A stretch of 64,000 bases of DNA from Hyaloraphidium curvatum SAG 235-1. Its lineage: Eukaryota; Fungi; Monoblepharomycota. Where the stretch lies: positions 124,001 to 188,000 of the forward strand of contig JAIVFI010000008.1 in the NCBI GenBank assembly GCA_025558095.1, read 5' to 3'. The notes beneath the pieces were generated by a model that was not told where the DNA came from, did not search any database, and saw only the letters and a list, made by a program, of their open reading frames with translations. Made by a program: the position numbers and the translations under genes. Each line of letters starts with the position of its first letter. The first letter of the stretch is position 1. This document shows, one piece after another, positions 9,977 to 61,105 of this stretch.

Positions 9977-10200
9977 GTTCAGGACTTCGCAAAGCCGGTG
10001 AACTCGCGACGCACCCCCCACCCGCCGACCGCGACACCCTCGCAGAAAAGGAACGGAGACCGCTCTACGGATGAATGATTTCATTGAATCACTATATCAA
10101 TTCATCCACGTTTGCTTGGCGTGAGCGATAGATTCCGCGTCCTGGCCCTGGCTCCTGACCCCTTAGGCCGGCTCCCCTGCCCGCTCGACGGGCTCGCTGT

Positions 10201-14982: not shown

Positions 14983-17900
14983 CTATACACACCTCCAAGC
15001 AACTACAAGAACGTAGGACTTTACGCAGTTGAACTGCGTGTAGAAGTCCGCCTCGCTGGGGTTCAGAGCGAAACCCGAGCAAGACTGGCGTCCATCGCAG
15101 GCGGCCTGGGTCAGCGCGTCCTTTGCGTCGCGGGAACGTTCGCTGGCGCCGGGCGCTTGTTGGTTTTGCAACTGCTTTGTCACATGTGCGAGACCCGTGG
15201 AGAAAGGGTTCCTGAACATGTTCTGAAGGGAGCTCTGCACATTGGCAGCGGCGAAAGCAGCCGTGCACGCGTCCGTGGCCGCTGCCCTGTCCCCGGGCAC
15301 TTTGCACGTATCGGCCCGGAACGCCTCCGACCCGACCGGATCGTAGGCAAAGGTTTCGATCTTGATCTTCTTGCCAGCGTCGCACTGGATCTCTGCCCGC
15401 TCCTTCGCACACCAAGACCTGCCGAAGAGCCTCGGGCCGGTGTTCACGAAGCCCGACATCCACGTCTTGCCGACTTGCGCAAACGGTGCAACGCTCACGG
15501 TGTCGCAAGAGGCAATGTAGCAGTCCCTGGACGTGAGAGCGCTCGGGCTCGGGTCTGCTGCGTCCCAGGAGAACGCGCGGCATGGGCTAGGCGAGTTCGG
15601 CGCGCCGATCCTGCTAGCACAAGCTGAGCGGCACATGTCGAACGTCGGCACTTTGCCCAGATAGAGGCAGCCTCCGCTGCATGGGCAAGCGAAACTCGCG
15701 GTCCTCATGATGATCTCCCGATTGATCTGGTTGGCGAGCGTCGAGAAAATGCCCGGCAATCCTATCAGGGCCGCAGGATTCAGATAGAGCCTCATGAACG
15801 AACTGAGGCTGTTGGGTCCGGGCTTGACTTCGACCATTTTGTCGGGCTGCTCGTCGAAATACTGCTTGTATCCCGAAACGTGGCTGTTGGTCTGGGCAAT
15901 CGCGTTCAAGCTGAAGGTGGCGTACGAAAAGGTCGTCGTCCAGGCTGCCCTGCCGATGCATTGCGAGTCCCCGCCCCGCGCCCACGTGAAGCCCCAGCAG
16001 ACCGGATCCGCCTCGCACCTCCTCTTGCACGCAGAGGCTGAATCCATCTTGCCGTACGTCTTGAGGCCGTTGAGGCCGTCGCCCCAGTCGCGCACCGCGC
16101 CGGCCGGGACCATCCCCTCGATCAGGCTCCATCCGTCCATGTCCTCCCATTCCTTGAACCCCATCGGCGGTGCCGCGGGATGCTTCGCCACGTAGGCGGC
16201 CTGCCACTCCTCCACCTTCTTCTTCAGATCCGCAGGCAGCAACCTGTGCGCGGGGACGAAGGCATCCATCTTGATCACCCGCCATTGGTCGTAGGTCTGA
16301 TCGACGGACGCAGCCCAGGCGACAAACGAGCTGGTGTCGCCGTCCGGTCTGAACCCTCCCGAGAGCTGGCTCGTCGCACCCCCCACGGCGGTCCAGGTGC
16401 TGCCGCTCACGGCGCTCTTGAACGACCCCGAGGACGAGGACGAGGATCCGCCGCCGGCTCCGACGGATACCCCGGCCTTGCCGAGGCTGACCGACACCTC
16501 GGCGCTGATCGACTGCGACAGCGACGACGAGCTGGAGCCCGCCATGCTCGACGCATCGAAGCTCGAGTACAGCTTGGCCCCGAGCTCGACCTCGGACGGT
16601 ATCACGTGGCCCCACGTGCTCTTGAGCAGATCCTGGTACTGCCCGAACTTGGCGTCCGGAGCCGCCGCCGACTTGTCCACGGCCTGCACCGCGGCGACGA
16701 AATCTGGGTTCACCTTGAAGGGCGACGGGTTGTTGGGGTCCCACGTGATGACGAGCCTCCGGTAGTTCCAGCTTGCCACAGCTCGGGTCTGCTCGCTGCT
16801 CGAAGAGGACTCCGACGACCTTTCCTCCTTGTAGCTGGCAGATGCCGACACGAAACCGTAACTGGCCGAAACGGAGACATCCACGAACCCTGATGTCGCC
16901 ATGGCCGTTTCCCGCTCGGAATGGGTGATCTGGGTCGAGGCTTCCGCGGTGCTGGTGGGACGCAGTGTCAGCCGGATGGCAAAAGGCTTCCGATCCCGAC
17001 ATCACCTCAGAACCTTGTACTGCGGTTTCGGAAACTCTTTCGGATTCGGCGGCACGAGCAGGGCAAACTTGGATCCGATCGACTGCGCCGGCGCCGCCCC
17101 GGAGAGCTTGAACCCGTTCAGAAGGCTATTGGCGTCGAAGATCTCGAACCACTGCTTCGAGCAGAACTTGGACGGCCGCGGGGGCGAGGCGTCGCCGCAG
17201 GTCGCGCCGTCCTTGTCTTGGTCCTTGCCGCCCGAACCGGCGCCCTTCCCGCCCGCATCCTTTCCGTCCGAATCGTCGTCCTCGCTCGAATCTTCGTCGT
17301 CGCCGACCTCTTCCTCCTCCTCGTCGCCATCTTCCTCCTCGGATGCGAGCCCCTCGACGCGCATCTCGTACCCCGGCGCGATCCTCTGCCCCTTGGCCGC
17401 CATCACCCCGAGGTACATCCCTTCGAGCTCCCCGTCCACGGTCGCCGTGAGGACGAACTGTCCCGGGCTCTTCTGCTTCCCCTTGGCCGCACCGCAGGCC
17501 TGCTGCCGCAGCGGATCCGGTTTGCTCGAACCCGACGAGCCGGCTTTGGCGGAGAACTTGACGGGTTTGGCGCCGGCGCCGGCCTGGGTGGTCATGGCCA
17601 CGAGGGAGAGGTCCTTGAGCGCGAGCGGGGAGCCGTCGCCGCAGGCCCAGCCGCCGATGCGGACGGTGCCGGCGTCCGTGTCGAGGTCGAAGCTTTCGAG
17701 GTCCCCGGCAAATTGCGGGGCTGCGGTGGCGGATCAATGAGCGCGCGCTCGAGGATTGGATCGCATGCACTTACGTGTGACGGTGACGGGCTTGGCGTCC
17801 TTGGTCACCAGCTCCACCTGCTGCGCCTGCCCTGCCTTCGAGGCGGGATCCGCCCCCGGCGGGAAAGCAAAAGCTTTGAGCGCCTTGCCGATAACCCCCG

Positions 17901-19263
17901 TGACCTTCTCCGCCGGAACCACGATCGAGAACCGCACCGTCGCGGCCGCGATCCCGCCGCACTTTGCCAGCACCGCCGGATCGGTGTTGGCCACGGCGGT
18001 GACCCCCGTCGCCATCTCGCTGCCCTTCCCGTACGGCGCGGCCTGCACCGCGACCACGACGGGGGAGCTGGACCCCGTGAGACAGGCCCACCCTTCGACG
18101 AGCCCGGCCCCGGGGACGTCCGGATTGGGCCTGTACCCCGCCAGCTCGCCGATCAGCTTCGGGGGCTCCGCCTTGGCCTTGAGCTGGGCCGCAATCTCCT
18201 CCGCCGTCATGGGTTTGGGCGGTTTCGCGACGCATTGGTACCAAACGCGGAGGTACGGCTCCTCGTCGGCGTCGTTGACCGTGCACGTCTCGGGCTCGCC
18301 GTCGGCGGCCAGCTTGGGTGTCGCGGTGACGGTGCACTTTGTCTTGCCCTGGCACCGCTTCTGCAGCTCCACGAGGGCATTCTTGTCCGTGCCGCAGAGG
18401 GGGCCGGGCGCCTTGGGCTGGCCGCCGCACAGGTTGGCCGAGCCAGGGTACCGTCCCCACGTCGCCCTGAGCACGGATATCTTGTTGCTGGGGCAGGTGA
18501 CGCTGGCCTTCTTGTCCCCGCAGATGGTGGTGAGAAAGAGGCCGACGTGCGGCGCGGGCTTGGACGGCGCGCAGCGGTAGTCGACCTTGAGCGCAGCCTG
18601 CTGGCCGGTGCAGGCCGCGGCCGAGGATACAAGCTCGAAGATGTCGGCGCCGCAGGATTGCCGCGCTTGGCAGGCGGCCTTGACGCGGTCCGTGATGAGC
18701 GTCATCTCGTCAGCCGACACGGCGCACTCTGGTGCCGGGCCCGGGGCGGTTGCCTTGCTTTTCGCGGCCGCCTTTCTCCTGGTGAGACGGCGGCCCGCGT
18801 TCGGGCTCCGAGGGCCGCCCCACATTCGCCGGAGCCAGAGCCGTCCGGCGTACCGCGACCGCAACCGCCGGATCCGGCGTCTCTCCTCCTCATCGTCCCA
18901 AGACTCTTCCTCATCGTCCCCCTCTTCGTCGTCCTCCGCGCTCTCGTCCTCCTCCGAATCCTCGTCCGCGTCCTCCGACTCGTCCTCGCCGTCCCCGTCG
19001 CCGCCCCCGTCGCCGCCCCCAGCCGGCGACTTGCCGCCCTTGCATCCCGCGTCCCCCGCGGCGAACGCGACCTTCTGCACGTCCACGAAGTTCTCGCCGC
19101 AGTCGAGGAACAGGAAGTCGCCGTCCGCGCAGACTGTGGCGGATGCCTGCCCCTTCTTCCCGCGTTCGACCCGGCCAGGCCCTCGCGACGCGTCGGCGCG
19201 CGCCGCGGCCGCCCACGCGAGGACGACGAGCGCGAGGCAGATCAGCGCCGCGCGGAGGGCCAT
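14983..19263 (-). CDS. Secreted MACPF pore-forming-like protein with 3 SUEL-type lectin domains and 2 PAN/Apple-like domains (~1390 aa, 3 exons)
   Basis: Exons 19263-17775, 17720-17006 and 16951-14983 splice in frame. Signal peptide MALRAALICLALVVLAWAAAA. SUEL Cys patterns (ATWGRY..C..CQGKTKC..YLRVWYQC). MACPF signature WGHVIPSEVELGAKL with Ser/Gly-rich TMH-like segments and WAASV..WRVI..P..LL. PAN-like CKRRCEADPVCWGFTW. Confidence 0.82.
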
Positions 19264-20400
19264 CCTCGGGGGCGGGACGGGCGGGAGGCGGCGGGGGGTT
19301 GAAGGATGGGTCCCGCCTTGAGTGGAGCTCCCCAGCCCGTTTCGGGTCTGTCCTCAAGGCCTCAAGGCGACGAGTCGGTGAACATCCAGGAGCGTTCATC
19401 AGTCGGATATTGTGCTGTTGTCTCCTTGGAGGGATGCAAGGCTCGCTAGCCGGCGAGAGCGCCGGAACTTGTGCTCCAACGGGGCTCTCTGATCGAGGAG
19501 TCACCTCGACAACAACCAACAGCCCGCCATAATCTGTCGAAAAATGCCTATTCTTCCGGCTGCATTCCATTATGCAAACCATTCGTTCATTTGCGCTCTT
19601 TCGCGGTCGCCGTCAGTGCCAAGGACCGTCCCCGCCCGGTGCCCTCGCGGCGCGCTTGGGCGGCATTGCGGCGGCGTGACCACGAGGAAGCTGTGCCGGC
19701 CGCCCCGTCCGAAGCCAGTGAGCCGGGCCGCGTGGGAACAAGCCGGTATAAACATGTTCCGGCCGCCAAGCCGCGATTGTAGGCGGCCGACCGGTGTGGC
19801 CGATCGCACACAGCAATCCCGGCCGGTCCGGTCTCCGCGGCGGGGATCCCTGGGCGGCGGGCACCGGAGCGCCGGGACCCGATTTGGATGTGCCGCGAGG
19901 CTTTTGACATGTGTAGCGAGGGGGCATGTGAAGGCGGGCGGGCCGCCATGAGGTTCAGGGTCCCCGGCGCGGAGGCGGGGGCGGGCGGAGGTGTTTGCGA
20001 CACCTGCGCGGCCGGCCGCCCCATCGGAGCGGTTCGGTCTGAGCGGTACAGTGAGATAGAAGGTTGGGCCGCGCGGTTTCGGAGGGCGGAGGCGCGGTCG
20101 GCCGGGTAGAAGCTGGTCCGAAGTTTAGGCGCTGGGTGGCTGAAGCCGGACGGCCCTCGCGATCTGTGGCGAGGCGAATCGGAGGCCGAAGGTAGGCCTA
20201 GTGGCTCCAGGTGTCGGCGGGAGCAGCTTCGAAAGGAACAATCTTTAGGTAGCGCCGCGAATCAGGCCGGGCTTCCGCGGAATTCGTCGGAGGCGGCGTT
20301 TGGAAATGGCGCTGTGTCGGCCGGCCACGACTAGCCGCGGCGCGGGCGGACCCTTTTCATCATCAGCGAAAACAGGTTTCCCCTCTGCCCTGACAAAACC

Positions 20401-21057
20401 ATGAGCATGTCGCCTGTTTCCCCGCAGCCGCCTTCCCCCGCGCTGGTCGAGCTGGCCATGCCGCCGCCGGTGGTGCGGACGCCGAACGGCGTCGTCGCGC
20501 TTTCTGTGACCGACCTAACCGGAGCGGCCGACGACGACGCCCACTCGGTGCGCTCCGTGGCCACCTGCGGCCACTCGGACTCTGGAGACTTGGACGCCTT
20601 TTGCTACGGGTGCCATGTGGACGCCGGCCAGCAGCGCCGGGCCCGGTCAACATCGCCCGCCCGCTCCGCCTCGGTCCGCTCCGGGCCGCTCGACGCCCGC
20701 CCGCCCCCGCCCCACGCCCTGCGCCGCGCGACGTCGATGTCGATGCCCGGCGCACCGGCACCGCCCGGGTTCTCCTCCCTGGGCATGATGTCGCTGCCCG
20801 CGGGCGGCGCCCTGCCGCACACGCACCCGATGGCCCTCTCGATGACCCTTGCGCCCGTGCCGAACGGGCACGCGCATTTCTTGCGGGCCGCGTCGCAGAC
20901 CCTGGGGTCGGGCGCGGTGCCCGTTGCCCCGGTTGTCCCGGACAACAAGTTTACCGCCGCTGTGATGAAGAGCCGGCGGAAGGAGATGGAAAAGCAGCTG
21001 CCGCTTCAGTTGCAGATGCCCGGCATGCAGCTGGACACGCCGGTGGCATTTTACTGA
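20401..21057 (+). CDS. Hypothetical Pro/Ser-rich protein
   Basis: 218-aa ORF with GC3-biased codons, mostly disordered, one CYGCH motif. Confidence 0.5.
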   Translation: MSMSPVSPQPPSPALVELAMPPPVVRTPNGVVALSVTDLTGAADDDAHSVRSVATCGHSDSGDLDAFCYGCHVDAGQQRRARSTSPARSASVRSGPLDARPPPPHALRRATSMSMPGAPAPPGFSSLGMMSLPAGGALPHTHPMALSMTLAPVPNGHAHFLRAASQTLGSGAVPVAPVVPDNKFTAAVMKSRRKEMEKQLPLQLQMPGMQLDTPVAFY

Positions 21058-21512
21058 TTGCTGGGCGATGCGGTGCTGGGCACGGACCTGCCTTTGGCCA
21101 AAATGGACCTTCATGGGAACCCGTGGTGATCTAGACGGAGAACGGCGGCGGGAGCGGCACATGGACCTGCCGGCCCGCGGCCAGAGAATCAGCTTATTTA
21201 CCCCAGCTCATGTACACTTATTGGCGAATGGCACGGACCTGAAGAAGCTCGACTTTGTGTGTCCCCTTGTCCCGGAGCAGGGTGGCTTTTGGCTTCCGGT
21301 AAGTCGAAGAACATTGTTCCATTTCCTGCCATTCCTTCGCGGTCAATCTGCGGACGGTCGTGCCTCGCGATTCTCATTGAGTTTCGTAGCGCGTTGTTGT
21401 TCCTTGGAGGTCGACCCTGCTCGAGTGATGATTCGTCCCCCCCAACCGAAACGTCCGACGCCGCCGTCCCAACCAGACCACCTTCTCCCTCCTTCCCCGC
21501 CTTCCGATAACA

Positions 21513-22116
21513 ATGGTACGCTGCTATCGAGCGCTGCAACGCCGGCCGGGCGGTCCCGCGCGCGCCTGCGCGGTGCCGGTTCCGCTTCTCGGCGTGCGGC
21601 CAAAACCGTCGCGACCCCCGCCCTTTCTGCACCGTGATCCGCCCTTTCGGGAACTGATTCGTACTTTTCTTGCCTTGCGTTTTCCCGCCGCACCGCCGCC
21701 CGGACTCTTCCCCGCCCTCCGACGCCTCCTCGCACCCTTGGCGCGTCCCCTTCGCCCGGCCCCGCCTCCCCCTCCGCAGGCCAAGGCCGCCAAATCCTCC
21801 ACCACCAAGTCCGGCGCGCCCAAGGAGAAGCGACCGTCGACGTGCGCCGTCCATCCGCCGCGCACGTGCTTGATCTGACGCCTTTCTCCCTCTTGACTTC
21901 CTCCCTTTCCCTCCCTACCAGCCCCTGGAACAACTTCGTCTCGTCCCGCCTGAAGGACATCAAGGCCGCCCATCCCGGATGGTCCGTTCCCTCGCCGTCT
22001 GCCGACTGCGTCCGCGCGGCTGACCGTTGTCCGCCCGCAGGACGCACAAGGAGGCCATGGAGCACCTCGGAGGGATCTGGAAGAACGCGCCGGAGAACCC
22101 CAAGAGGGGCAAGTGA
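21513..22116 (+). CDS. Small YABBY/HMG-box-like DNA-binding protein (~65 aa)
   Basis: Spliced product M|AKAAKSSTTKSGAPKEKRPST|PWNNFVSSRLKDIKAAHPGW|THKEAMEHLGGIWKNAPENPKRGK*, matching the fungal YABBY-like (S)xYNxF..L...P...HKE....A..WK.APENP pattern. Introns at 21516-21779, 21842-21921 and 21982-22040. Confidence 0.8.
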
Positions 22117-22580
22117 TCAAGGTGGGCTATCGGTCGCGGAAGGTGCGGACTGGTCTGATCTCTTCGCCTGTTGATCAGAGAAACGGTGGAATGCGGCTGT
22201 AGCAGGGGACGAGGGACGGGCTTTGTCGTAGAGGGGCTGAATGCATGGTTTCTGAGGCAATTTGATCTACTCGCCCTACTCGCGTTTTGTCCGGCGCTGG
22301 CGTCCGTGGGATGTCCTGTCCGATCGCTGAGCCGGACAAGATAGAACAAATCCGCCGTATCGTCCGTGCTTGTATTGCGAGGTGGTAGAGCATCGATTTC
22401 AAGTCCGAATCATTTTTCGTGGAGGACGGATGAAGGCGCCTCCGACGCATTTCGTGCGGCCTTCTCCCGGCCGGGCAGCTCCTTGCATGGAACACCAAAA
22501 AGGGAGAAAAGGAACGAGAGTGTTGTAGAGAACTAGATATTTAGGTGAACAGACACAGCAGCAGGCATACATGCAGTTGA

Positions 22581-50579: not shown

Positions 50580-50793
50580 TGTTGCACTGTTTGTTGACTC
50601 GCGCAGGCGGATCGCGCACGCGCTGCATGCGCCGCCGCCGGGCCGTCTCCCAGCCGAAGCTTCCTCTGGTTCCGGCCTCCCCGCGCGAACTCGGACACTG
50701 ATTCCTCTGGATCGCCATCCATCTCGTTCCTCCACGGTCCTGGCGCGGCGGGCTTTCTTTTAGCCGCGGGATTAGCTTTCCGTTTCCCTCGCG

Positions 50794-52762
50794 ATGGTCG
50801 TCTTCCGGGGACCCCTCATTCCGATACCGCGCGTGTCCGTCCAGGACTACCTGTTCCGCGATGGGGACGCCGATAAGCTGGAGAAACGGTCCCTGCCCAT
50901 CGTTGAGGACAGCATAACGGGGGAGGTCCTCACCTTTGGAGACTTTGCGGACGCTGCAGAGGACCTGGCTTCGGAATGGATGCTCCTAGGAGGACCGTGG
51001 ACCGTCAACCGGGGAGACGTCGTCGCGCTCATCTCACCGAACCACGTGGACTACTTCCGCGCGTTCTTTGCCATCATCCGTTGCGGCGGCGTAGTCTCGA
51101 CTATGAATCACCTGTACCGGGAGTTCGAGTTCAAGCACACAATCAGCCTGGTGAATGCAAAATACCTGATCGTCCACTCGCAAGTGCTGGACACCGTGAT
51201 GGCGGTTGCGAAGGAGTTGGGCATCGACAAGTCGCGGGTCGCCGTTTTCGACGACATCATTCTCGGAGGCACGATCGCTCCGCGCACGGGGCTTGCAAAA
51301 GAGCTGCCTTCGCTGCGCGAGATGATGCAGAGCGGGAGACGAAAGGCGACCAAGGCTCCGTGGATCAGCTTGCGCGAGGACGAGGTGGACAAGACGCTCC
51401 TCTGGGTTCCTTTCAGCTCTGGGACTACTGGATTGAGCAAAGGCGTAGCTTTATCACATTACAATCTCGTTGCTCAGGCGGAGCAGCGCATATTCGTCGA
51501 CGCCGACGAGTTCGTCCCCGGCCGCTTCGTGTCGCTTTCGGCAACCCCGCCAGCTCACATCGGCGGGGGCACTTTCATGTGCACGTATCTGAAGGTAGAT
51601 TGACGCATGATTGCATGATTGACACATCATTGACGCATGATTGCGCTCCTTTTTACCCCGTTTCCAGTCAAAGGTCAAGAGCGTATTGCTTCCTCGTTTC
51701 GAGATCGAGCCCGTTCTCAAGGCCGTCGAGAAGTACAAGGTCTCGTTCCTGCCCGTACTGCCTCCGGTGGCGGTCAACATCCTCGCGCTGGGGGGCAAGG
51801 ACTACCTCTCCAAGTTTGACTTGCGATCGATCAGATTTTTGAGCTGCGCGACGGCGACGCTTCCTGCCTCGACCGAAGACGCCATCACGAAGGCGTTTGG
51901 GGTGCGGATGCGTCAGATGTACGGCATGAGCGAATGTACCGTGAGTGCTCGTCGTGCTGGAGAGTTCGCCTCGCTCTGGGCTGACCACTCGCCACCGGCA
52001 GTGTGTCACTCACTGTACGAGACGTGAATCGCGCATTCGCTCTCGTCCTGACTCGCCGCTTTCCCTTCTTGTCCACTACAAGCGCGGACCGGACGTCAAG
52101 GGCTCAAATGGACCTCCCGTTCCCTGCCTGGATTGCAAGCTCGTCGATCCGAAGACGGGCAAGGAGTGCGGTGTGGGCGAGGAAGGCGAGGTCCTTCTCA
52201 AGGGTCCAACCGTCTTCATGGGCTACTTGGGCAACGACAAGGCGACTGCCGAAGCGATCTTGGAGGACGCGGACGGGAAGTGGTACCGGACGGGCGACAT
52301 CGGCGTCTGCGACGAACTCGGATTCCTCACGATTACCGACCGCATCAAGGAGATGTTCAAGGTCAACGGTTCGTCACGAGGAGGGCGCCGATGCTTTTCA
52401 TGTGCTGATGCACATTTGCAGGCTACCAAGTCTCTCCTGCTGAGCTGGAAGCGCTGTTGATTCAGCACCGGGCCGTGGCGGAGGCAGCGGTCATCGGCAT
52501 CCCCGATCCTGTCAGCGGCGACATCCCCAAGGCCTTCGTCGTTTTGAAACCCGGCGTGCAAGGGACGCAGGAGCTTGTCAAGGACATCACGGACTTTGTT
52601 GCGCCGAAAGTCGCCCCTTACAAGCGGCTCCGGGGCGGGATCGAGTTCGTCGACGAGCTAGTCAAGGTGATAGTCAGAATGGGACGATCACAATTATTCA
52701 ACAATGTAAAGTACATAGAATGGCACGATCGTAATACTCTACATGACTCTTTCGCGGGGTAA
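50794..52762 (+). CDS. 4-coumarate-CoA ligase/luciferase-like acyl-CoA ligase; final exon apparently missing
   Basis: FSSGTTGLSKGV, QMYGMSE, GEVLLKGP, YRTGD, DRIKEMFKVNG|YQVSPAELE and KRLRGGIEFVDE are present. No A10 GKxLR motif follows. Confidence 0.88.
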
Positions 52763-52891: not shown

Positions 52892-55800
52892 TCAGTCGTC
52901 AACCATCATCGGATCATCGACGTGCCGAAGCGCCGCTTCGAGCGCCATCTCGATCTCGTCCGCGGCGGCAGCCATCGCGGCCTCGTCACCATCGAACCGG
53001 TAGTCTTCTGCTAGATCCAGGTCAAGGAGGCCTCCCTCACGAGGGCGAACAACTCACTGATTGCCTCCGCCAGAACGGTCTCGTTGACCGGACCCAATTC
53101 CGTCTCGGTTGCAAGGTCCACGCCGCTGCACCCATATACATCAGCAACGACGGCGGGTTGGAGGACCAATCGCGGCGTACCTGCTCGTGTGGAGCGCTGG
53201 GGCCGTCTGCGGCATCTCCGAATACTGCGTCCTGGTCGGAACGGTCGGCTCAGGGGTTTTGGGGCCCTTCTTGGAGACTGCATCCGTCTTCGCGAAGCTC
53301 AGCTTGACCTGCTGCTTGGCAGGCTTGGCCGACGGGGCGGCTTGCGCCGACGCCTTCGGGCGAGGAGGCGCAGTCGCAGCCAATGGTGCGTCAAACAGCT
53401 TCCGCTGTTGGAAGTTCTGCGAGGTCGGCAGCGACTTTGGTGCGGCGGAAGAGGGTGCTCGTGTCGGTGCGGGAATGGCAACGGAGACTTCCACAACCGC
53501 TGGTTTGGTCGGAGCCACCGAGGCAGCAGGCACCGCCGCGGCGGCAGTCTCCGTCGATGCAGCAGGCGCCGAGGCAGCCGCGGCCGGAAGAGGAATACCG
53601 AGTGAATCCAGGAGCATGTTGGCAATCCTCTGCAGTGTTTCGGGTTTCAGCCGGATCCGCTCTTCGTCGTAACGACACGCGACGGTAACAGGAGGCATGT
53701 TGTCCGGCATCTTCATTCGGAGCGTGAGCTTGAGCTGGTTCAGCACATCGCGCTGAGCAGTGTGAAGTCCAGGAAGCACGGCCATTGCGTGGCGCAGCTT
53801 GTAGAAGTACGAGTCCGCGGAGGTCTGTGGCAGGATCTCGACGTCCACCCGGACATCGGCAATCTCCCTGAAAACATGCCTATGGGTGACTTGAACCTTG
53901 CTCTTCGGTGGAGGTTTGCTCTCGGCCTTCCGCCGTGCATTGGCCTTGGCCTCCTTCTCGTCGCGCTCCCTGTGCAGGCGTTCAGAGATGGCGGCTTGGC
54001 GCTGCCCCCACTCGATTGATTCCTTCCATTTCCGGTAACGATCCGCCGGAAACCCCAACGTCAAGTCCCCAACGTTGTAGAAGGCAATCTTGAAGCTGCT
54101 CTGCACGTTCGACTTGTTGGTGTTGGAGAGCGTAGGGATCAGGCCCTGCTTCACCAGCTTCGACATGCCCAACGGCGAGGAGGGAGCGGCGGGCACCGTC
54201 GGATCCTCGAGCGGCGCTCCGACGGCCTCCACCGCCGGGCCGTTGGGGTCGACCGCGGCGAGATCCACTGAAAACCCTTGCGCGAGCACGGGATCGACGA
54301 CGTTCACGGCCGGAAGAACGTGGGGTTCAGCAGCTCCAACGGCGGCAGGAAGAAGAGGTTCGGAGCCAGCGGGGGAAGGGGGAGGAAGCGGTTCGGAGGC
54401 TGCAGACCAAGATCAGTTTCGCCGAGAAACGGAACCCGAAGCAAAGATTACCAGAGCCCTTAGCCATCTTCACCCTCTTGCGCGTTCCTTTGCTGCCGTA
54501 TTGCTCCGCAAAGTCGGGGAACTGCTTCGCCATGTTCAGGTTCTCTTTGGTGACACCGCGCTTTTTCCATTCGTCCGCAGTCGTCGCGACCCGGTCGCCC
54601 TCGATCCAGGTGATCACGGCCTTGACGTTCTCGGCAGCGTTGGCGAACCTCCCCATTTCTCCGGAAAAGATCACGGCGACGTGGTCCGGGTCGTCTCCCG
54701 GCATCTTGTACGACAAGACCAACTTCAGACGCATGCACACCGCGATGTCCTCAGCCGAGAGTTCCGCGTTTGCGAGGCGGTGGCGAACCTTCCCGAAAAG
54801 CGACTCATCCGTCTGGCTGGGGAGCAGCTCGACAATGACGCGAGGGTCGGCCATACGCATGAAGACGTCCGCGTCCCAAATTTCCTCCCGGGTCTTCAGA
54901 CGGCCGTTGTTCTCTTGCGCTCGGGCAGCAACTCGTGCTGTTTGCTCCTCCTCCAGCGCGATTTTCCAAGTGTCCGTCTCCATCCACCGCTCCAGTGCTC
55001 CAAGCCATGCCTCCTTAGGGACTCCCATCTGCGGATAGCATGGATTAGCAGAGCCGAAGCAATGCAACGCGCATGCGCAAACCTGGACCGCTGGCAGCAC
55101 CGTCTGGTCCGCAACGGCTTTGCGCGCTTGAACGAGCGTGACTTCCAAGCATCGCTGGCTGGTAGCGAACGCGTGGATGCCATCCCGCAGAGCGCTTTCT
55201 AGACCGCGCTTATGATGCATAGTCGCGAGTGCCGCGATTTGGTTCGGAGTGCCAGTAGCCAGAGTCACGAAGTGCGCGTTGTACTGGGTTCTGAACGCGG
55301 TAAACATGCCGTTCGGCCCATGAACGTAAGCGGCAAGAGCTTTCCCGAACTCCGAGCGCAAGGCCGCGGTCACTGGTCCATTCTCCATTTCCGTCCTCTG
55401 GTTCAGGCCGTGTTGGAAGGGCGAAGAGTAAAGCTCTTTCAGCTCCGGGTATCCCGCAAACTCGACTGCCGCGACGCTGTACACGCTCCTGCATCCGTCG
55501 CGGAAGAACAAGCCAGTCGCCTCGAGAAACATCCGCCGCTCCTCGGCAGCATCCTTGTGCAGGATGTCGAACCGTTGCGGAAGCGTGGTCGCCGCGTACT
55601 CGTAGTGCTTGGAGTCGATGAGATACAGGAACTTCTTCGGAGTCTTTGCACGTGCACTGTCCGAATCGTGACCTGTGGTCTGCCGCGCTGCGATACCGCC
55701 GACCATACCCGTTTCGCCGTCGTAAAAGTTCGATGGACCGTTGCGCAAGAGATGCCCGGCATCGTCCGTCGCCGCACGAAGCTTTCCGGTTTCGGTGAGT

Positions 55801-56189
55801 TGGACTGCAAGCCCCTGCGAAGCCCGGACGGTGTAGTTTCCTTGCCACCGGGGGAGCTTGCCGATTGGTCCGAACTCCAGGTAGTTGATGTCGCCGAGGA
55901 GGTACGACTTGATCTCGTTGTTGTTGCGGAGCGTTGACATCGTGGTAACAAAGTAGTCCTCCGATTGCATGCGACTGAAGTACCACGAGTTCCGAGTCCC
56001 GACGCCCTCGTGTTCGGCAGCGAGACGCGCGTATATCCTCAGAGCGGGAAACATGTCCTCTTTGACGCGGCGCATGAGCTCCGTGCGCTCAGGATCTTCG
56101 GGGATAGCCATCGCGATGGCGAGGTTCTGCATCAGGAGCTGGCCGTCCGCCACCGGACGCAACCACGTCGCATCAGGCACAGTCGGCAT
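52892..56189 (-). CDS. Large orphan protein (~1000 aa, multi-exon), no recognised domain
   Basis: ORFs 54327-56189 and 53141-54307 are joined by a GT-AG intron (~54401-54451). Further introns lie near 55030-55083, 53130-53180 and 53010-53057. The last exon ..RHVDDPMMVDD* ends at 52892. Confidence 0.65.
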
Positions 56190-58635
56190 CTTGAAAAGGA
56201 ACCAGAAGACGAAGCTGCTGAAGTTTAGCGGGAAAGATCCGGCCTGCGCGATGGCTGCGAGCTCACCAGAGAGCGGACCGCGGGACGGACGCCCCTTGCG
56301 AAAAGCGCGCGGCTTTCCGCACTACGGCCCCGCGCGGCCGCGCGGTGGCCGTGAGAACGACAAGATCGTCGTCCTATACGCGAAACGGGGAGCGCGAGCC
56401 TCCACCGGCCGGTTTCCGCGGTCCGGTGTGAGCCGTCTTCGAAGTGAAGAAAGTGGGAGGAGGGAAGCGCGCGACGCGACCCACACGCGCAGTCACACCG
56501 CACAAACGGCAAGGGGGCTGGCCGGCTCCCAAGCACACCGCCGCCGAAATCCCCCCAACGACGCCTCCAAAGGGACTGGAGGGGCTGCAGACGCGCTCGG
56601 AGGCAGGAGAGGGCGCGGAGGCCGCATCTCGCACGAGACGCGGCCGTCGCGGGAACACACGGAGATCGGGATGGGCTACAGGCCATCTCTGGCATGGGAA
56701 GACGAGGTGAGGCGCATCGCGGCGATTGAGCACGGAGGAGGCCTTACATTGCCATCTTCCCATGGTTGGTTGCGTCCGGTGTTCAATGGACCGGTTTAGC
56801 GACCGCCAGCTGGCGGTGCTCTTTCTCCGGCGGCGCTAAACAGCGCCAAACAAGCCGGTGCTGCGAGGCCGATGACTCGGCGCCGCGCGCCAGGGGCCCC
56901 GCCACGTGAGCGGGACCCCGGGCAACACAACCCACATCGCCGGCGGCCGTCGTCGCCGCGGGCCAGCTCACCTACTATAACGACAGCTACGCGCGGCTCG
57001 TGCTCGGAATCTCGCCTGACCCGCTCCGCTGGGACAATCTGCGCGGCGGAAACGAGTACCTGGGTAGCGCGCCTTCTGGGGACGCTTCCGGAGCGAATCC
57101 CCGACGGCGCCGCCGTCTGCGCCCCGTTGGCCATCGGTCAGTGCGGAAGCCGTCGGGCGGTGCCAGTCGCCAGCGGAGCCGCGGGTTGCGACTTCGCCTG
57201 ATTGGCCGACGGAGTGGGCGTGACTGCGCGCGGCTGGACGCGCACAATCCCCGATACATGTCACTGCTACGCGAGTGCGGGTCACCGTTTCCTTGTCGGC
57301 GCTTCCTACCGCCATCTCTGTTCCTGGGTGGGCGTGGACGGCTCCCGTGGCGCCCTGAACTGTGCTTCTGCGTAGTCGGGGAACCTAGCTGGACGGCGCG
57401 ACGGAAGGTGCCCCTCGGACAGGACTGGGATGCCAGAGGCATGATTCGGTCTTTTGGATTGCAACTAGCTCTCTCGGATTACCAAAATCCGGGAGAGGAC
57501 TGCGTTCCGCGGACGAGCATCGAGAGAGCGGCAGGCCGGACGATCCACTCCTCTCCTCGCCGACCTTCAGATCAACGTTATCTCTCATGTTCATTTTCTG
57601 CTAGCTCCCTTTCCACGAGGTTGAATCGTTCTTTCTTTCGATCACCCTTCTTTCGAACTCAATGAAAAGAGGTTTCAACTCAATGAACAGTTCTGGTGTC
57701 TAAGTGCTCTAGCTAAACTCGGCCAGCAGGTCGTCGACCCCCAAAAGAATCCCGATATCGCCGCCACGATCGACTTCGTTCCGCTCCAGTCCCCCCCACA
57801 GGGCGTATCAGTCGACGCCTCCCGGAAGGCGGTCCCAGCGACCGAGTTCCAACGGTGCTCCGATGCCGACCTCGTGGCCGACATCGTCCACGAGCTTCTA
57901 GATATCCTCGTCCGTCGGCTGGTCCTCGAAGCCGCCAAAGAATGGAGGATGCGGAAAGCAAGGACATGCGCCGTCCGCTGGACTCGCAGCTCGATTCCAA
58001 AGTATGACAACGCGATGGCGACTCCCTGCGGCCGCTGGCCGCGTCGCACAAGTCAAGATCGCAGGCGTTGTGCCGGTGGCTGCCAACGAGCCCATGCCAC
58101 GGGTGAACGACGAGTCCGCCCCGCGTCCGAGAAGGAGGAGCACGAAGACAAGGTTCTAGCTGCAAGAGTCTAACTAGAGTCGAGAATGTTGGAGATCACG
58201 CGGGCGGCACGGCCGCCTCGTGCCCCCGCATCGGCATTTGGACGCGATGACGATTGCATAACGACGCTGCCGTAGTTCGAACTTTGCGGCCGCGCATCCG
58301 GGAACACAGGGAATGAGCTCCGTCCGCAAGTATAAGGTAGAGGCGATGCGGCCGGTCTAGCGCACGGAGCCATGACGACGGGCGGCGCGCGGCGACGAGC
58401 GGCGCCAGAATGGTGTCCGGGGCGTTCTCGCGGGGCCAGGCGCGGCGATGGGCGAGACGGAGAGCGCCCGCGGTGAAGCAGGCGACCCGCAATCTAGCGC
58501 GGCCGGGCACCCGCACGGTGCGAAGAGGGCTGCCAGCTGGCGGGCGGCACCACCAGCCGCCGACGCCGAGGGCCTCCGTCGGCCCGCCAGCCCCTCTCGA
58601 ATTGGAACCGCACCGCAACACCGTCTGTCCCCGAC

Positions 58636-60036
58636 ATGATTAAGCAGATCAGCATTCCGCTGCTACCGTCGGCGCGGAGGAAGCGGGGTGCGCTGCAGGG
58701 TCTCCGGGCCACGGAGCGGACGACCAAGCTCGGAAACGCGCGTCCCGCGTACGCGCTAGATGCAGTGCCCCCAGGGGCCGAGATCCTCGAGAAACACGAG
58801 CATGGAAATGTATCCTACATGACTCCGGACGGATCCAAGCTTTCGTACCCGGTCAAAGTCCGCCGCCTGAAGGAGCCCGTCCCCGGGCTGTGGGGGTTCA
58901 TCGCGGACAGCTTCCTGCAGGCTCTCCCGGCCCTGAAATCGTACGACCGGAAATCTGCGCCATTGCATGAGGTCGCTGGCGAGGGCGCGGAGCCGAGTAC
59001 CTACAATCTTGGCCTCCACGAGACACCGCTGGCGGACGGCCGGAAGCTGCGGACGACCAAGAACATGGCTTCTGACCTCGGACAGTCACTTAACAGCGAG
59101 AAAGGGGCCATGGGTATGCTCAGCGCCATGATCGACGAGTCGTTCATGAGAATGGATCCGGCGGAGGCCAAGCGGCACTTCGCTTTGGTCGCCCTGCTGA
59201 AGACGCTCGCCCGCGTCGCCGAGAGCTACGGCCCGCGCTGCGCGCTCGCCGTCAACGTCAACCTCAACGCCGCCACCTTCGCCCACATGGACTTCAAGAA
59301 CCTGCTCAACAGCATCTGTCACCTGTTCGTCGTCTACGGCAGCGAAGGCGAGGTGGAGCTTGGCGACCTCGTCATCCTCGAAGGGGAACGTAAGCTAGTC
59401 ATCCGGATGGCGCCCGGCACGCACGTCTCCGGCCCCTTTCACCTTTTCTGGCACTGCAACCCCCCTCTCCTCCTCCGCCGTGGCGGCGCCCGGCTCGCCT
59501 TCATCTTTTATCTCATGGACGGCATGATTGAACTCTCGCTCCTCGCCTTCGCGCTCTCCGAGCACTTCGCGAGGTTGAACGACGAGAGCGTCAAGCTGCT
59601 GAAGCACTTTGGTGCGGGCAAGCACTGGTTCGACTCGGAGGGGAGGATCGAGCTTGGCGTGATCAACCCCAAGTGGAGGAGCTTTGCTCCGAAGCGCATC
59701 CGTCCCGCGCTCCCCGCCACGGTCGAGGGCGACGAGCCGCGCGAGACAGTGGCGGAGAGGGAGGACCGGCTCCGTCGGGCAACCCTGGCTGCGAGGGAGG
59801 TGGAGGAGCAGGCTGCTCGCGAGCGCGGAGCAGACGAGGAGGAAGAGGACAGGCGAGTTTCCGACAAACGGAAAGATCCCTGCGGTACGCTCATCGTACG
59901 CATTCGATCCTGCAGGTTCCTCGACCCGAACGCGGAGGAAGCAGAGGACGATCGAGTTTACGAATGGGAGCTCCCGCATCCCGATCCTTCCGACGGCGCC
60001 CACTCCGCCTCGAAGGCCGCCGCAGAAGCTTCCTAA
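58636..60036 (+). CDS. TET/JBP-family 2-oxoglutarate/Fe(II) dioxygenase-like protein
   Basis: HxD (HMD at 59284-59292), GDLVILE..MAPG, distal His in FWHCNPP (59452) and 2OG-binding Arg in GARLAFIFY (59491) follow the fungal TET/JBP spacing pattern. Confidence 0.75.
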   Translation: MIKQISIPLLPSARRKRGALQGLRATERTTKLGNARPAYALDAVPPGAEILEKHEHGNVSYMTPDGSKLSYPVKVRRLKEPVPGLWGFIADSFLQALPALKSYDRKSAPLHEVAGEGAEPSTYNLGLHETPLADGRKLRTTKNMASDLGQSLNSEKGAMGMLSAMIDESFMRMDPAEAKRHFALVALLKTLARVAESYGPRCALAVNVNLNAATFAHMDFKNLLNSICHLFVVYGSEGEVELGDLVILEGERKLVIRMAPGTHVSGPFHLFWHCNPPLLLRRGGARLAFIFYLMDGMIELSLLAFALSEHFARLNDESVKLLKHFGAGKHWFDSEGRIELGVINPKWRSFAPKRIRPALPATVEGDEPRETVAEREDRLRRATLAAREVEEQAARERGADEEEEDRRVSDKRKDPCGTLIVRIRSCRFLDPNAEEAEDDRVYEWELPHPDPSDGAHSASKAAAEAS

Positions 60037-61074
60037 CAGCCCTCCGAGGAGCCCATCGACGTCGGGAAGCTCTTTTTTGTGCCGAAGCTGACCGAGCCAG
60101 CTCTGGCACTCCTGGAGTACCGCCGCCGCGAACCCGGATCCTCCATCGCCTGCCTCATCCCCGAAGGATTCGTGCCGCCGGGGCTCGAGTTTTTCAAGAT
60201 GCCTCTGTGCATGGTGCTGGAGGATATGGACATGCAGACCAAGGGCCAGAAGATGCTGGACGATGCCCGTGTCGTGCACGACAACGCCGCACTGCTTCGA
60301 GGAGATGCGACGAAGCGGCTGGCGCGGTCGGAAAAGGCCCTGATCAAAGCTGCGATGATCCAGTGGGGCGAGGACCTAGACAGGAAGTGGGAGCAGCACA
60401 AGACGGGGCTGATCGATATGATGATTCTCCGCGATCGCACCCTGCCCGTGCCCAACCCCCTCGCTACCATGATTCATCTCGTGCAGGTCTGCCGCTGCGA
60501 CAACCGAGCTTCTAAACGGAACGAGGACGACGAGTATCGCCAGTACTCGAAGGCGTACTTCAAGATCCGCGACAAGGTGGCGGCGGACCTGCGGCGCCTG
60601 AAGGATTCTGCCAAGGCCGAGTACGCCGAGCAGCAGCGGGAGCGGCGGGCTGCAGAGGAAGCTGCGGACAAGGCGGCAAACCTGCGACATGCGTCCGCGC
60701 TGCTCAGCGAGAGCGAGGCGCTGCGCACGGCGTCGGGGCTCCCCCGTGACGGCACAGTTCGCGATCCCGATGGCGATGGCGCCCCCGGAGCTGCCAGGGA
60801 ACGCAGCGAAAGCGGTGGCAGCAGCGCCGTTCGGAACCCCGAGATCCTCGTACTTGTTGCCGACGCGCAGGAAAAGCTGGGCGAGATCGATCGAGAGGAC
60901 GAGCAAGTCAAGGACCGACGGAAGCGCCTCGCCGAAGACATCGAGAAGGTTAAGGAAGAGCTGAAGCGCCTGAGGGGAGAGGATCGAGAGGCGGAGCGTG
61001 AGGAGGAGGAGCTGGAAAAGAAGCGGGAGGAAGTCAAGATCCAACTAGCCCGCCTGGCCAAGGAGGCGGAATAG
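60037..61074 (+). CDS. Helical/coiled-coil region in frame with the TET/JBP ORF (probable C-terminal continuation)
   Basis: Same frame as 58636, separated only by TAA 60034-60036. E/K/R-rich heptads at the C-terminus. Confidence 0.55.
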   Translation, partial: QPSEEPIDVGKLFFVPKLTEPALALLEYRRREPGSSIACLIPEGFVPPGLEFFKMPLCMVLEDMDMQTKGQKMLDDARVVHDNAALLRGDATKRLARSEKALIKAAMIQWGEDLDRKWEQHKTGLIDMMILRDRTLPVPNPLATMIHLVQVCRCDNRASKRNEDDEYRQYSKAYFKIRDKVAADLRRLKDSAKAEYAEQQRERRAAEEAADKAANLRHASALLSESEALRTASGLPRDGTVRDPDGDGAPGAARERSESGGSSAVRNPEILVLVADAQEKLGEIDREDEQVKDRRKRLAEDIEKVKEELKRLRGEDREAEREEEELEKKREEVKIQLARLAKEAE

Positions 61075-61105
61075 GATGCAACAAGCATGGCAGAATGTCT
61101 GCAAT

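What the first reader, a model, noticed from the sequence alone, without database searches (positions are those of the whole stretch)
58636..60036. TET/JBP-like DNA-base dioxygenase without an adjacent recognisable KDZ transposase
Seen: HMD..GDLVILE..PG..FWHCNPP..GARLAFIFY. Known: fungal TET/JBP genes are mostly described in basidiomycetes, travelling with Kyakuja-Dileera-Zisupton transposons; Coprinopsis TET oxidises 5mC and also acts on 6mA, and many early-diverging fungi have abundant 6mA. Here the usual RxS is RxA and no CxC/KDZ transposase is visible. Inference: a DNA-modifying enzyme in a new genomic context, possibly with altered substrate or co-substrate.
Basis: partly seen in the sequence, partly recalled or inferred. 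Interest (0 to 1): 0.75.

Follow-up and report, generated by a model that had tools for sequence, protein, structure and literature searches.

The report
Divergent TET/JBP dioxygenase in aquatic fungus
An early-branching aquatic fungus transcribes and splices a very divergent gene of the TET/JBP enzyme family that likely oxidises methylated cytosine (or thymine) in DNA, with no recognisable transposase beside it and with protein-like code continuing past its stop codon.

Summary
The gene is real. It is Hyaloraphidium curvatum KAI9027763.1, 445 aa after removal of a 63-nt GC-AG intron seen in an RNA contig. Pfam misses it, but three lines place it in TET/JBP: a language-model search (0.96), profile comparison (97.7% against 1.5% and 0.7% for other 2OG-oxygenase families) and a TET-alignment-guided model whose top three matches are TET2, NgTet1 and CcTet. 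H217, D219, H273 and R286 are kept in its only homologue (33% identity). No KDZ/CxC domain was found in 137 window ORFs, but TET genes already ride 11 transposon lineages. RxA is weak evidence of a changed co-substrate, since NgTet1 has RxG. Asn222 argues against 6mA. The base-reading His/Arg is Met here, as in ParB-type phage T-dioxygenases, so thymine is a serious rival to 5mC. New observation: 54 coding-like codons follow the TAA in frame into a 345-codon ORF on the same RNA contig, which suggests a longer product by readthrough, alternative splicing or a recent nonsense change. Verdict: a new, divergent member of a known family.

The parts
58636..59852 (+). Exon 1 coding part: N-terminal segment, TET/JBP dioxygenase domain (about residues 50-310) and start of an acidic linker
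59284..59301 (+). H217-x-D219-x-x-N222: two predicted iron ligands and a base-reading Asn (TET2 N1387 position)
59452..59454 (+). H273, predicted third iron ligand (WHCN)
59491..59517 (+). R286-L-A288-F-I290-F-Y292-L-M294: predicted 2OG-binding Arg, RxA, pocket residue, base-stacking Tyr, and Met in place of the His/Arg of solved TETs
59853..59915 (+). 63-nt GC-AG intron, in frame, removed in the RNA contig
59916..60036 (+). Exon 2 to the TAA stop (acidic tail of the 445-aa protein)
59956..60039 (+). Possible 84-nt alternative intron (GT..AG, phase 0) whose removal would drop the TAA and fuse both ORFs; not spliced in the one RNA contig; hypothetical
   Evidence: retained
60037..60198 (+). 54 codons directly after the TAA, in frame, with coding-like codon use and no ATG
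60199..61074 (+). In-frame downstream ORF, annotated by NCBI as a separate 291-aa protein; charged C-terminal part (likely coiled coil); no family hit
52892..56189 (-). Divergent neighbour: spliced 1028-aa protein of unknown family with an internal repeat; not recognised as a transposase

Best explanation
This is a transcribed, spliced fungal gene for a divergent TET/JBP-family protein that is predicted to bind Fe(II) and 2-oxoglutarate and likely oxidises the 5-methyl group of a flipped-out DNA pyrimidine, most likely 5mC to 5hmC, with thymine as the next candidate. Shown: ORF, intron, transcript, family-level similarity, and conservation of H217/D219/H273/R286 in a 33%-identical homologue. 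Inferred: H217, D219 and H273 hold iron; R286 and T214 hold 2OG; Y292 and I290 line the base pocket; N222 and C228 read the C4 substituent of the pyrimidine and exclude 6mA; Asn207 at the TET2 T1372 position may stall the reaction at the hydroxymethyl step. The gene was probably left behind by a mobile element or virus and now sits as an ordinary intron-bearing host gene, where it would loosen or re-mark 5mC silencing.
For: ESM Atlas, no alignment given: best hit 0.96, 10 of the 10 best named hits share the Tet_JBP family or clan. hhalign of the two-sequence profile: 97.65% (P 2.6e-12, 188 columns) against mixed phage/bacterial TET/JBP; 1.47% against 12 PF13640 proteins; 0.66% against 5 AlkB-type proteins. 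Independent HMM test. AlphaFold2 with a 90-row alignment: pLDDT 73, pTM 0.72. Foldseek: all 15 rows shown from ranks 1-20 are CMD1, CcTet, NgTet1 or TET2. VIA-align over 48,161 chains: TET2 Z 16.8 (rmsd 3.7, 239 aligned), NgTet1 16.2, CcTet 15.6, then ALKBH3 and CMD1 14.2. N209, H217, D219, H273, R286, Y292 and M297 are invariant in all 90 rows. Pocket positions mapped by sequence offset to TET2, NgTet1 and CcTet. In the chytrid Spizellomyces 5mC is confined to transposons (PMC12695648).
Against: No Pfam, NCBIfam or PDB sequence hit for the protein alone; PHROG E 0.02 only. An HMM of 98 mostly ParB-type phage proteins did not detect it. The single-sequence model failed (pLDDT 34), and the good model was built from a TET alignment I chose, so the fold match is not independent. 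The His/Arg that hydrogen-bonds the base in TET2 (H1904), NgTet1 (H297) and CcTet (R393) is Met294 here and Val in the homologue. The Arg called strictly conserved in 5mC dioxygenases (TET2 R1261) could not be placed: R105 is shared with the homologue and is the candidate, but residues 103-143 have pLDDT under 50 and two alignment registers compete. No methylation data for this species were found. CpG is not depleted in the window (o/e 0.99-1.18). No activity was measured.
Confidence: 0.62

Rival explanations
1. It is mainly a DNA thymine hydroxylase (T to 5hmU), working like JBP1/2 or the phage T-dioxygenases. This is the T-preferring share of the best explanation, stated apart.
For: The pair Asn at His+5 and no His/Arg at Tyr+2 matches the ParB-type phage group: Asn in 84 of 86; Leu 50, Lys 21, Ile 7 of 86 at Tyr+2 (regex counts, one row mislabelled). 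ParB-dependent phage enzymes are shown T-dioxygenases (PMC13229309). I assign my group to that subclass only from the ParB-like neighbour annotations. Best single sequence relatives are about 450-aa phage proteins (35-40 bits).
Against: In a tree of the core the pair lies on a very long branch and joins no phage group. No ParB-like or glycosyltransferase gene was found nearby. The basis of T versus 5mC selectivity is stated to be poorly known (PMC8256090). I found no report of 5hmU as a DNA mark in these fungi.
Confidence: 0.25
2. The true or former product is a roughly 760-790-aa fusion: TET domain, acidic linker, unknown domain, coiled coil. It would be made by readthrough of the TAA or by splicing out 59956-60039, or it was cut recently by a nonsense change. 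This is compatible with the best explanation and concerns targeting rather than chemistry.
For: The 54 codons between the TAA and the first ATG score like coding sequence: GC by position 0.69/0.43/0.81; codon score 0.18 against 0.22 for the ORF behind and 0.29 for the TET core; reached by 3 of 5000 stop-free shuffles and 0 of 180 overlapping stop-free non-coding windows. One RNA contig runs through the stop with no other letters. The stop is followed by C (TAA CAG), a leaky context (recalled). GTT donors occur in 4 of 17 RNA-supported introns here.
Against: A contig across two genes shows no single transcript, and this one also runs on into the next gene. NCBI annotates the downstream ORF separately. 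Its ATG has the same 13-nt context as the neighbour gene's start. The homologue ends right after the TET domain. The 84-nt segment is not spliced in the one contig.
Confidence: 0.45
3. It is still cargo of a mobile element or viral insert not recognised here, with the divergent 1028-aa gene and the downstream ORF as other parts, inserted between two paralogous AMP-binding genes.
For: All characterised fungal TET/JBP genes in PMC12730594 are transposon cargo. Only one homologue exists among 1.84 billion representatives, a patchy distribution. Both neighbours lack any family hit.
Against: No terminal inverted repeat: best arm-to-arm match is 13 nt, at two start codons. No second copy in the window and one member in the protein collection. 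Both genes carry host-type introns. GC content does not differ from the flanks. The one recognisable transposase (hAT) is 48 kb away.
Confidence: 0.2
4. It demethylates 6mA like CcTet, or uses ascorbate like CMD1.
For: Foldseek E-value ranks CMD1 and CcTet first. T214 matches CcTet T323, whose equivalent in CMD1 contacts ascorbate. RxA is absent from 163 phage/bacterial relatives. Early-diverging fungi are rich in 6mA.
Against: Asn222 instead of Gly331 and Cys228 instead of Asp337. R286 is present, whereas CMD1 lacks that Arg (recalled). TM-score and Z favour TET2 and NgTet1. NgTet1 has RxG.
Confidence: 0.08
5. It is catalytically dead or acts on RNA or another substrate, keeping the fold for binding.
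For: The base-reading His/Arg is lost and the R1261 equivalent is unresolved. Some phage members with full motifs showed no activity.
Against: All four catalytic residues are kept across 33% identity.
Confidence: 0.15

Closest known systems
Human TET2 and Naegleria NgTet1 (5mC dioxygenases)
   Same: Fold (Z 16.8 and 16.2); HxDxxN as in TET2; helix-Pro before the first core strand; R-x-x-x-V/I-x-Y/F strand.
   Different: 12-14% identity; Met at the H1904/H297 position; Asn at the T1372/A212 position; RxA; no Cys-rich insert recognised; short acidic tail.
CcTet and the AG, PU, PE types of fungal transposon-borne TET/JBP (PMC12730594, PMC11040006)
   Same: Fungal TET/JBP fold (Z 15.6); HxD (not the PE-type HxE); Thr at His-3.
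   Different: Host outside Dikarya; no transposase or TIR found; Asn/Cys instead of Gly331/Asp337; no AG/PU/PE member surfaced in three sequence searches. I did not align it to the AG/PU/PE sets.
Phage 5-methylpyrimidine dioxygenases, including ParB-dependent T-dioxygenases (PMC13229309, PMC8256090)
   Same: Best sequence and language-model neighbours; Asn at His+5 and non-His/Arg at Tyr+2 as in the ParB-type group.
   Different: 17-24% identity over the core; long separate branch; eukaryotic introns; no ParB, methyltransferase or glycosyltransferase neighbour found.
Chlamydomonas CMD1
   Same: Fold (top Foldseek E-value, Z 14.2).
   Different: The 2OG-binding Arg is present here (its absence in CMD1 is recalled).
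P0003, an unnamed 371-aa protein from Logan contigs
   Same: 33% identity over 341 aa; HxDxxN, WHCN, GGARxA, Asn at His-10.
   Different: Ends after the TET domain; its source and neighbours could not be seen.

Membership tests
TET/JBP (PF12851) | Double-stranded beta-helix 2OG-oxygenase fold closest to TET/JBP | tested here: met
   the model was guided by a TET alignment
TET/JBP (PF12851) | HxD...H iron triad and distal 2OG-binding Arg | tested here: met
   H217, D219, H273, R286 invariant in 90 of 90 rows and in the homologue; metal geometry not measured on the model
TET/JBP (PF12851) | Score over the Pfam curated cut-off (34.9 bits) | tested here: not met
   no hit at E<=10; the bona fide member Cooper gp2 also falls under the cut-off at 26.6 bits, so this is a sensitivity limit
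TET/JBP (PF12851) | N-terminal Arg equivalent to TET2 R1261 / NgTet1 R224 | tested here: inconclusive
   R105 shared with P0003 is the candidate; low pLDDT and two registers
TET/JBP (PF12851) | Hydrophobic pocket Tyr/Phe and Val (TET2 Y1902, V1900) | tested here: met
   Y292, I290
TET/JBP (PF12851) | Oxidation of 5mC or T in DNA | not testable with these tools
   needs an assay
5mC TETs of solved structure | His or Arg two residues after the stacking aromatic, hydrogen-bonding the base | tested here: not met
   Met294; Val in P0003
Transposon-borne fungal TET (KDZ and other TET+ elements) | Transposase gene in the same element | tested here: inconclusive
   0 of 137 ORFs hit KDZ/CxC/Plavaka; hAT 48 kb away; two neighbours are of unknown family and unfolded; window ends 4 kb downstream
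Transposon-borne fungal TET (KDZ and other TET+ elements) | Terminal inverted repeats or target-site duplication | tested here: not met
   (inverted repeats only; some Kyakuja and Helitron elements have none)
Transposon-borne fungal TET (KDZ and other TET+ elements) | Multiple copies in the genome | not testable with these tools
   no genome held; one protein member in the collection
CcTet-like 6mA demethylase | Gly at His+5 and Asp at His+11 | tested here: not met
   Asn222, Cys228; Asn, Ser in P0003
CMD1-like ascorbate enzyme | Loss of the 2OG-binding Arg (feature recalled) | tested here: not met
   R286 present
JBP1/JBP2 | J-binding or SWI2/SNF2 domain on the same chain | tested here: not met
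   no such Pfam hit in the protein or the downstream ORF; architecture from PMC11065753
ParB-dependent phage T-dioxygenase | Adjacent ParB-like activator gene | tested here: inconclusive
   no ParB hit nearby, but Pfam also missed Cooper gp1

The most novel reading that the evidence does not exclude
A new TET/JBP subfamily gives this fungus a thymine hydroxylase that writes 5hmU into its own DNA, a base-J-like mark not described in fungi, and readthrough or alternative splicing at the TAA switches the enzyme between a bare form and a form fused to a targeting domain.
Probability: 0.12. Interest if true: 0.85.

Novelty: new member of a known kind. Interest (0 to 1): 0.48.

Why it matters
Described fungal TET/JBP genes are transposon cargo in rusts, mushrooms and Pezizomycetes. 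An expressed, intron-bearing member in a much earlier-branching fungus, invisible to Pfam, suggests that the family is under-counted in early-diverging fungi and may have been domesticated there. Its pocket mixes TET2-like and phage-T-dioxygenase-like residues, so it is a small, directly testable case for the open question of what decides 5mC versus thymine selectivity (PMC8256090). If it makes 5hmU, it would add a DNA mark to fungi.

Tried and rejected
Single-sequence AlphaFold2: pLDDT 34, not searched. Pfam, NCBIfam and PDB sequence searches of the protein alone: nothing. tblastn of phages: only E 5-8 hits on 39 residues. Related-locus scans: viral 0 loci and one spurious 28-aa hit in a non-gene frame, L001; metagenome and prokaryote genome scans none. 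P0004 (E 3.6e-5) is a tandem repeat containing WHCN, rejected. HMM of 98 mostly ParB-type proteins did not detect the gene; its top window hit (frame at 62424, 9.5 bits) is treated as noise. Tree of 45 cores: the pair is a long branch, no donor can be named; no eukaryotic TET was in it, and one row was mislabelled. PF12851 scans of three bacterial phyla gave 1-2 of 301 genomes each and were used only to collect sequences. No TIR. No relatives of the downstream ORF in viral contigs. No run on record as RNA was listed; X1 is taken as RNA because its contigs lack the introns. Run X2 is too shallow to check the TAA. Earlier-findings look-ups by place and sequence were empty.

Full report
Observation. 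The protein search returned the gene's own record: Hyaloraphidium curvatum KAI9027763.1, 445 aa; its placement among Monoblepharidomycetes, early-diverging aquatic fungi, is recalled. Contigs of run X1 lack the introns of this and neighbouring genes, so X1 is RNA. Contig 3 covers 58595-59849 and 59913-61263 with no other letters. The skip is a 63-nt GC..AG intron at 59853-59915 and reproduces the 445-aa protein. The gene is therefore transcribed and spliced; contigs cannot give level, strand or ends.

Homologues. Three searches found one true relative: phmmer over 1.84 billion representatives gave 3 hits, namely itself, P0003 (E 9e-40) and a spurious repeat protein; two word-indexed searches added nothing. 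P0003 is 33% identical over 341 aa and keeps N-x-N-x-N-x-A-T-x-x-H-x-D-x-x-N, G-x-L-V-x-L-E, FWHCN and GGAR-x-A. Conservation of all four catalytic positions at that distance points to selection on an active site.

Family. Pfam, NCBIfam and PDB sequence searches miss the protein. The ESM Atlas, which used no alignment of mine, gave 0.96 to viral Tet_JBP clusters and 0.95 to an unnamed Basidiomycota cluster. I collected phage and bacterial TET/JBP proteins. An HMM of 98 mostly ParB-type proteins did not detect the gene. An HMM of 20 representatives at 50% identity, built without it, ranked P0003 (32.6 bits) and P0002 (17.2) above all other frames of 623 in the window and above 2000 shuffles (best 4.0). 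Profile-profile: 97.65% against a mixed TET/JBP set and 82-96% against its subgroups, versus 1.47% for 12 PF13640 proteins and 0.66% for 5 AlkB-type proteins (2 long control proteins were not extracted and the unpublished one was left out). A 90-row alignment gave a model of pLDDT 73, pTM 0.72, with residues 103-143 under 50. Foldseek rows from ranks 1-20 were all CMD1, CcTet, NgTet1 or TET2, with the best query TM-score 0.62 for TET2. VIA-align ranked TET2 16.8, NgTet1 16.2, CcTet 15.6, then ALKBH3 and CMD1 14.2. In viral models the named TET/JBP proteins ranked 3 and 6, above the AlkB-like ones. The model leans on my TET alignment, so carry more weight than the fold searches.

Active site, mapped by sequence offset (inferred). 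Iron: H217, D219, H273. 2OG: R286 (TET2 R1896, CcTet R385) and T214 (CcTet T323). RxA: Ser in 150, Thr in 10, other in 3 of 163 relatives, none Ala; 2 of 165 were missed by the pattern; NgTet1 has R-I-G. Pocket: Y292 and I290 match Y1902 and V1900. N222 matches TET2 N1387, which binds 5mC N4 and blocks 6mA; C228 matches T1393/S238, not CcTet D337. M294 stands where TET2, NgTet1 and CcTet have His or Arg bonding the base; the ParB-type phage group also lacks His/Arg there and has Asn at His+5, and ParB-dependent phage enzymes oxidise thymine. N207 stands at TET2 T1372, where some substitutions stall oxidation at 5hmC (Asn itself was not named in the passages seen). The R1261 equivalent is unresolved; R105 is the candidate.

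Context. Left: an AMP-binding (4-coumarate-CoA-ligase-like, my label) gene on +, then a divergent spliced 1028-aa gene on - (52892-56189) with an internal repeat and no family hit. Right: an in-frame ORF, a small spliced minus-strand gene and a second AMP-binding gene on -. No KDZ/CxC/Plavaka hit in 137 ORFs; a hAT-like ORF lies at 7565-10096. No TIR and no second copy in the window. GC is flat. No genome is held, so copy number is open.

The stop codon. TAA 60034-60036 is followed in frame by 345 open codons. NCBI annotates a separate protein from ATG 60199. The 54 codons before that ATG look coding: score 0.18, reached by 3 of 5000 stop-free shuffles and 0 of 180 overlapping non-coding windows, while the 46 codons upstream of the TET ATG score -0.19. 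Three readings: readthrough, a minor GT..AG splice of 59956-60039, or a recent nonsense change. Against: the splice is absent from the one contig, the downstream ATG has a good context shared with the neighbour's start, and P0003 has no such tail. In each case the catalytic domain is whole.

Mechanism and odds. TET/JBP family about 0.93. Active on a DNA 5-methylpyrimidine about 0.62, split about 0.37 for 5mC-preferring and 0.25 for T-preferring. 6mA or ascorbate chemistry about 0.08. Dead or other substrate about 0.15. The biological role (relief or re-marking of 5mC silencing) is inferred from other fungi and is the weakest step.

Literature seen. PMC12730594: parts 1-4 of 7 and a word search with 0 hits for chytrid, Mucor, early-diverging, Monoblepharid. 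PMC11040006: passages and section 16. PMC13229309: passages and section 5. PMC13297926, PMC12695648, PMC8256090, PMC6244454, PMC11065753: passages. Eight searches (listings only) showed no paper on a TET/JBP gene in Hyaloraphidium or its class. The library lacks most subscription papers, the original Iyer et al. survey was not seen, and no supplements were read; these could list chytrid members or give the T-dioxygenase alignment.

Verdict. Observation confirmed, interpretation partly supported. A new, strongly diverged member of a known family in a host lineage where I found none reported, with an unusual pocket and an unexplained in-frame continuation. Interest 0.48.

Noticed in passing
window 60034-61074 (+): In-frame 345-codon ORF straight after the TET stop; the first 54 codons, before any ATG, have coding-like codon use; same RNA contig.
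   Followed up: partly
window 52892-56189 (-): Spliced 1028-aa protein of no known family with an internal repeat (residues about 370-483 and 727-797, tblastn E 1e-7 to 1e-6), divergent from the TET gene; two more introns in its 5' leader.
   Followed up: partly
window 56185-56197 and 60191-60203: The start codons of the minus-strand neighbour and of the downstream ORF share an identical 13-nt context (blastn E 0.2, may be chance or a favoured start context).
   Followed up: no
window 50776-52760 (+) and 62420-64000 (-): Two paralogous AMP-binding enzyme genes in inverted orientation flank the block (86-nt arms 73% complementary at their C-terminal domains).
   Followed up: partly
window 57632-58527: A separate unspliced 896-nt RNA contig just upstream of the TET gene with no convincing ORF; strand unknown.
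   Followed up: no
window 7565-10096 (-): Intronless 844-codon hAT-like transposase ORF (DUF659, hAT dimerisation domain).
   Followed up: no
window 14986-26147 (-): Cluster of ORFs with MACPF-like, PAN and SUEL-lectin domains, likely secreted proteins.
   Followed up: no
window 61080-62300 (-): Small spliced gene (about 109 aa, acidic, low complexity) between the downstream ORF and the second AMP-binding gene.
   Followed up: no
window 59853-59915: The TET gene's only RNA-supported intron is GC-AG; the other 16 listed are GT-AG.
   Followed up: yes
window 48998/59825, 52928, 56224: A joint with only 22 letters on one side in X1 and two single-base gaps in shallow X2 contigs; probably assembly noise.
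   Followed up: no
L127:67-1416 and L134-L213: An abundant group of about 450-aa phage TET/JBP proteins is the best sequence match to the fungal pair (35-40 bits); their substrate was not established here.
   Followed up: partly
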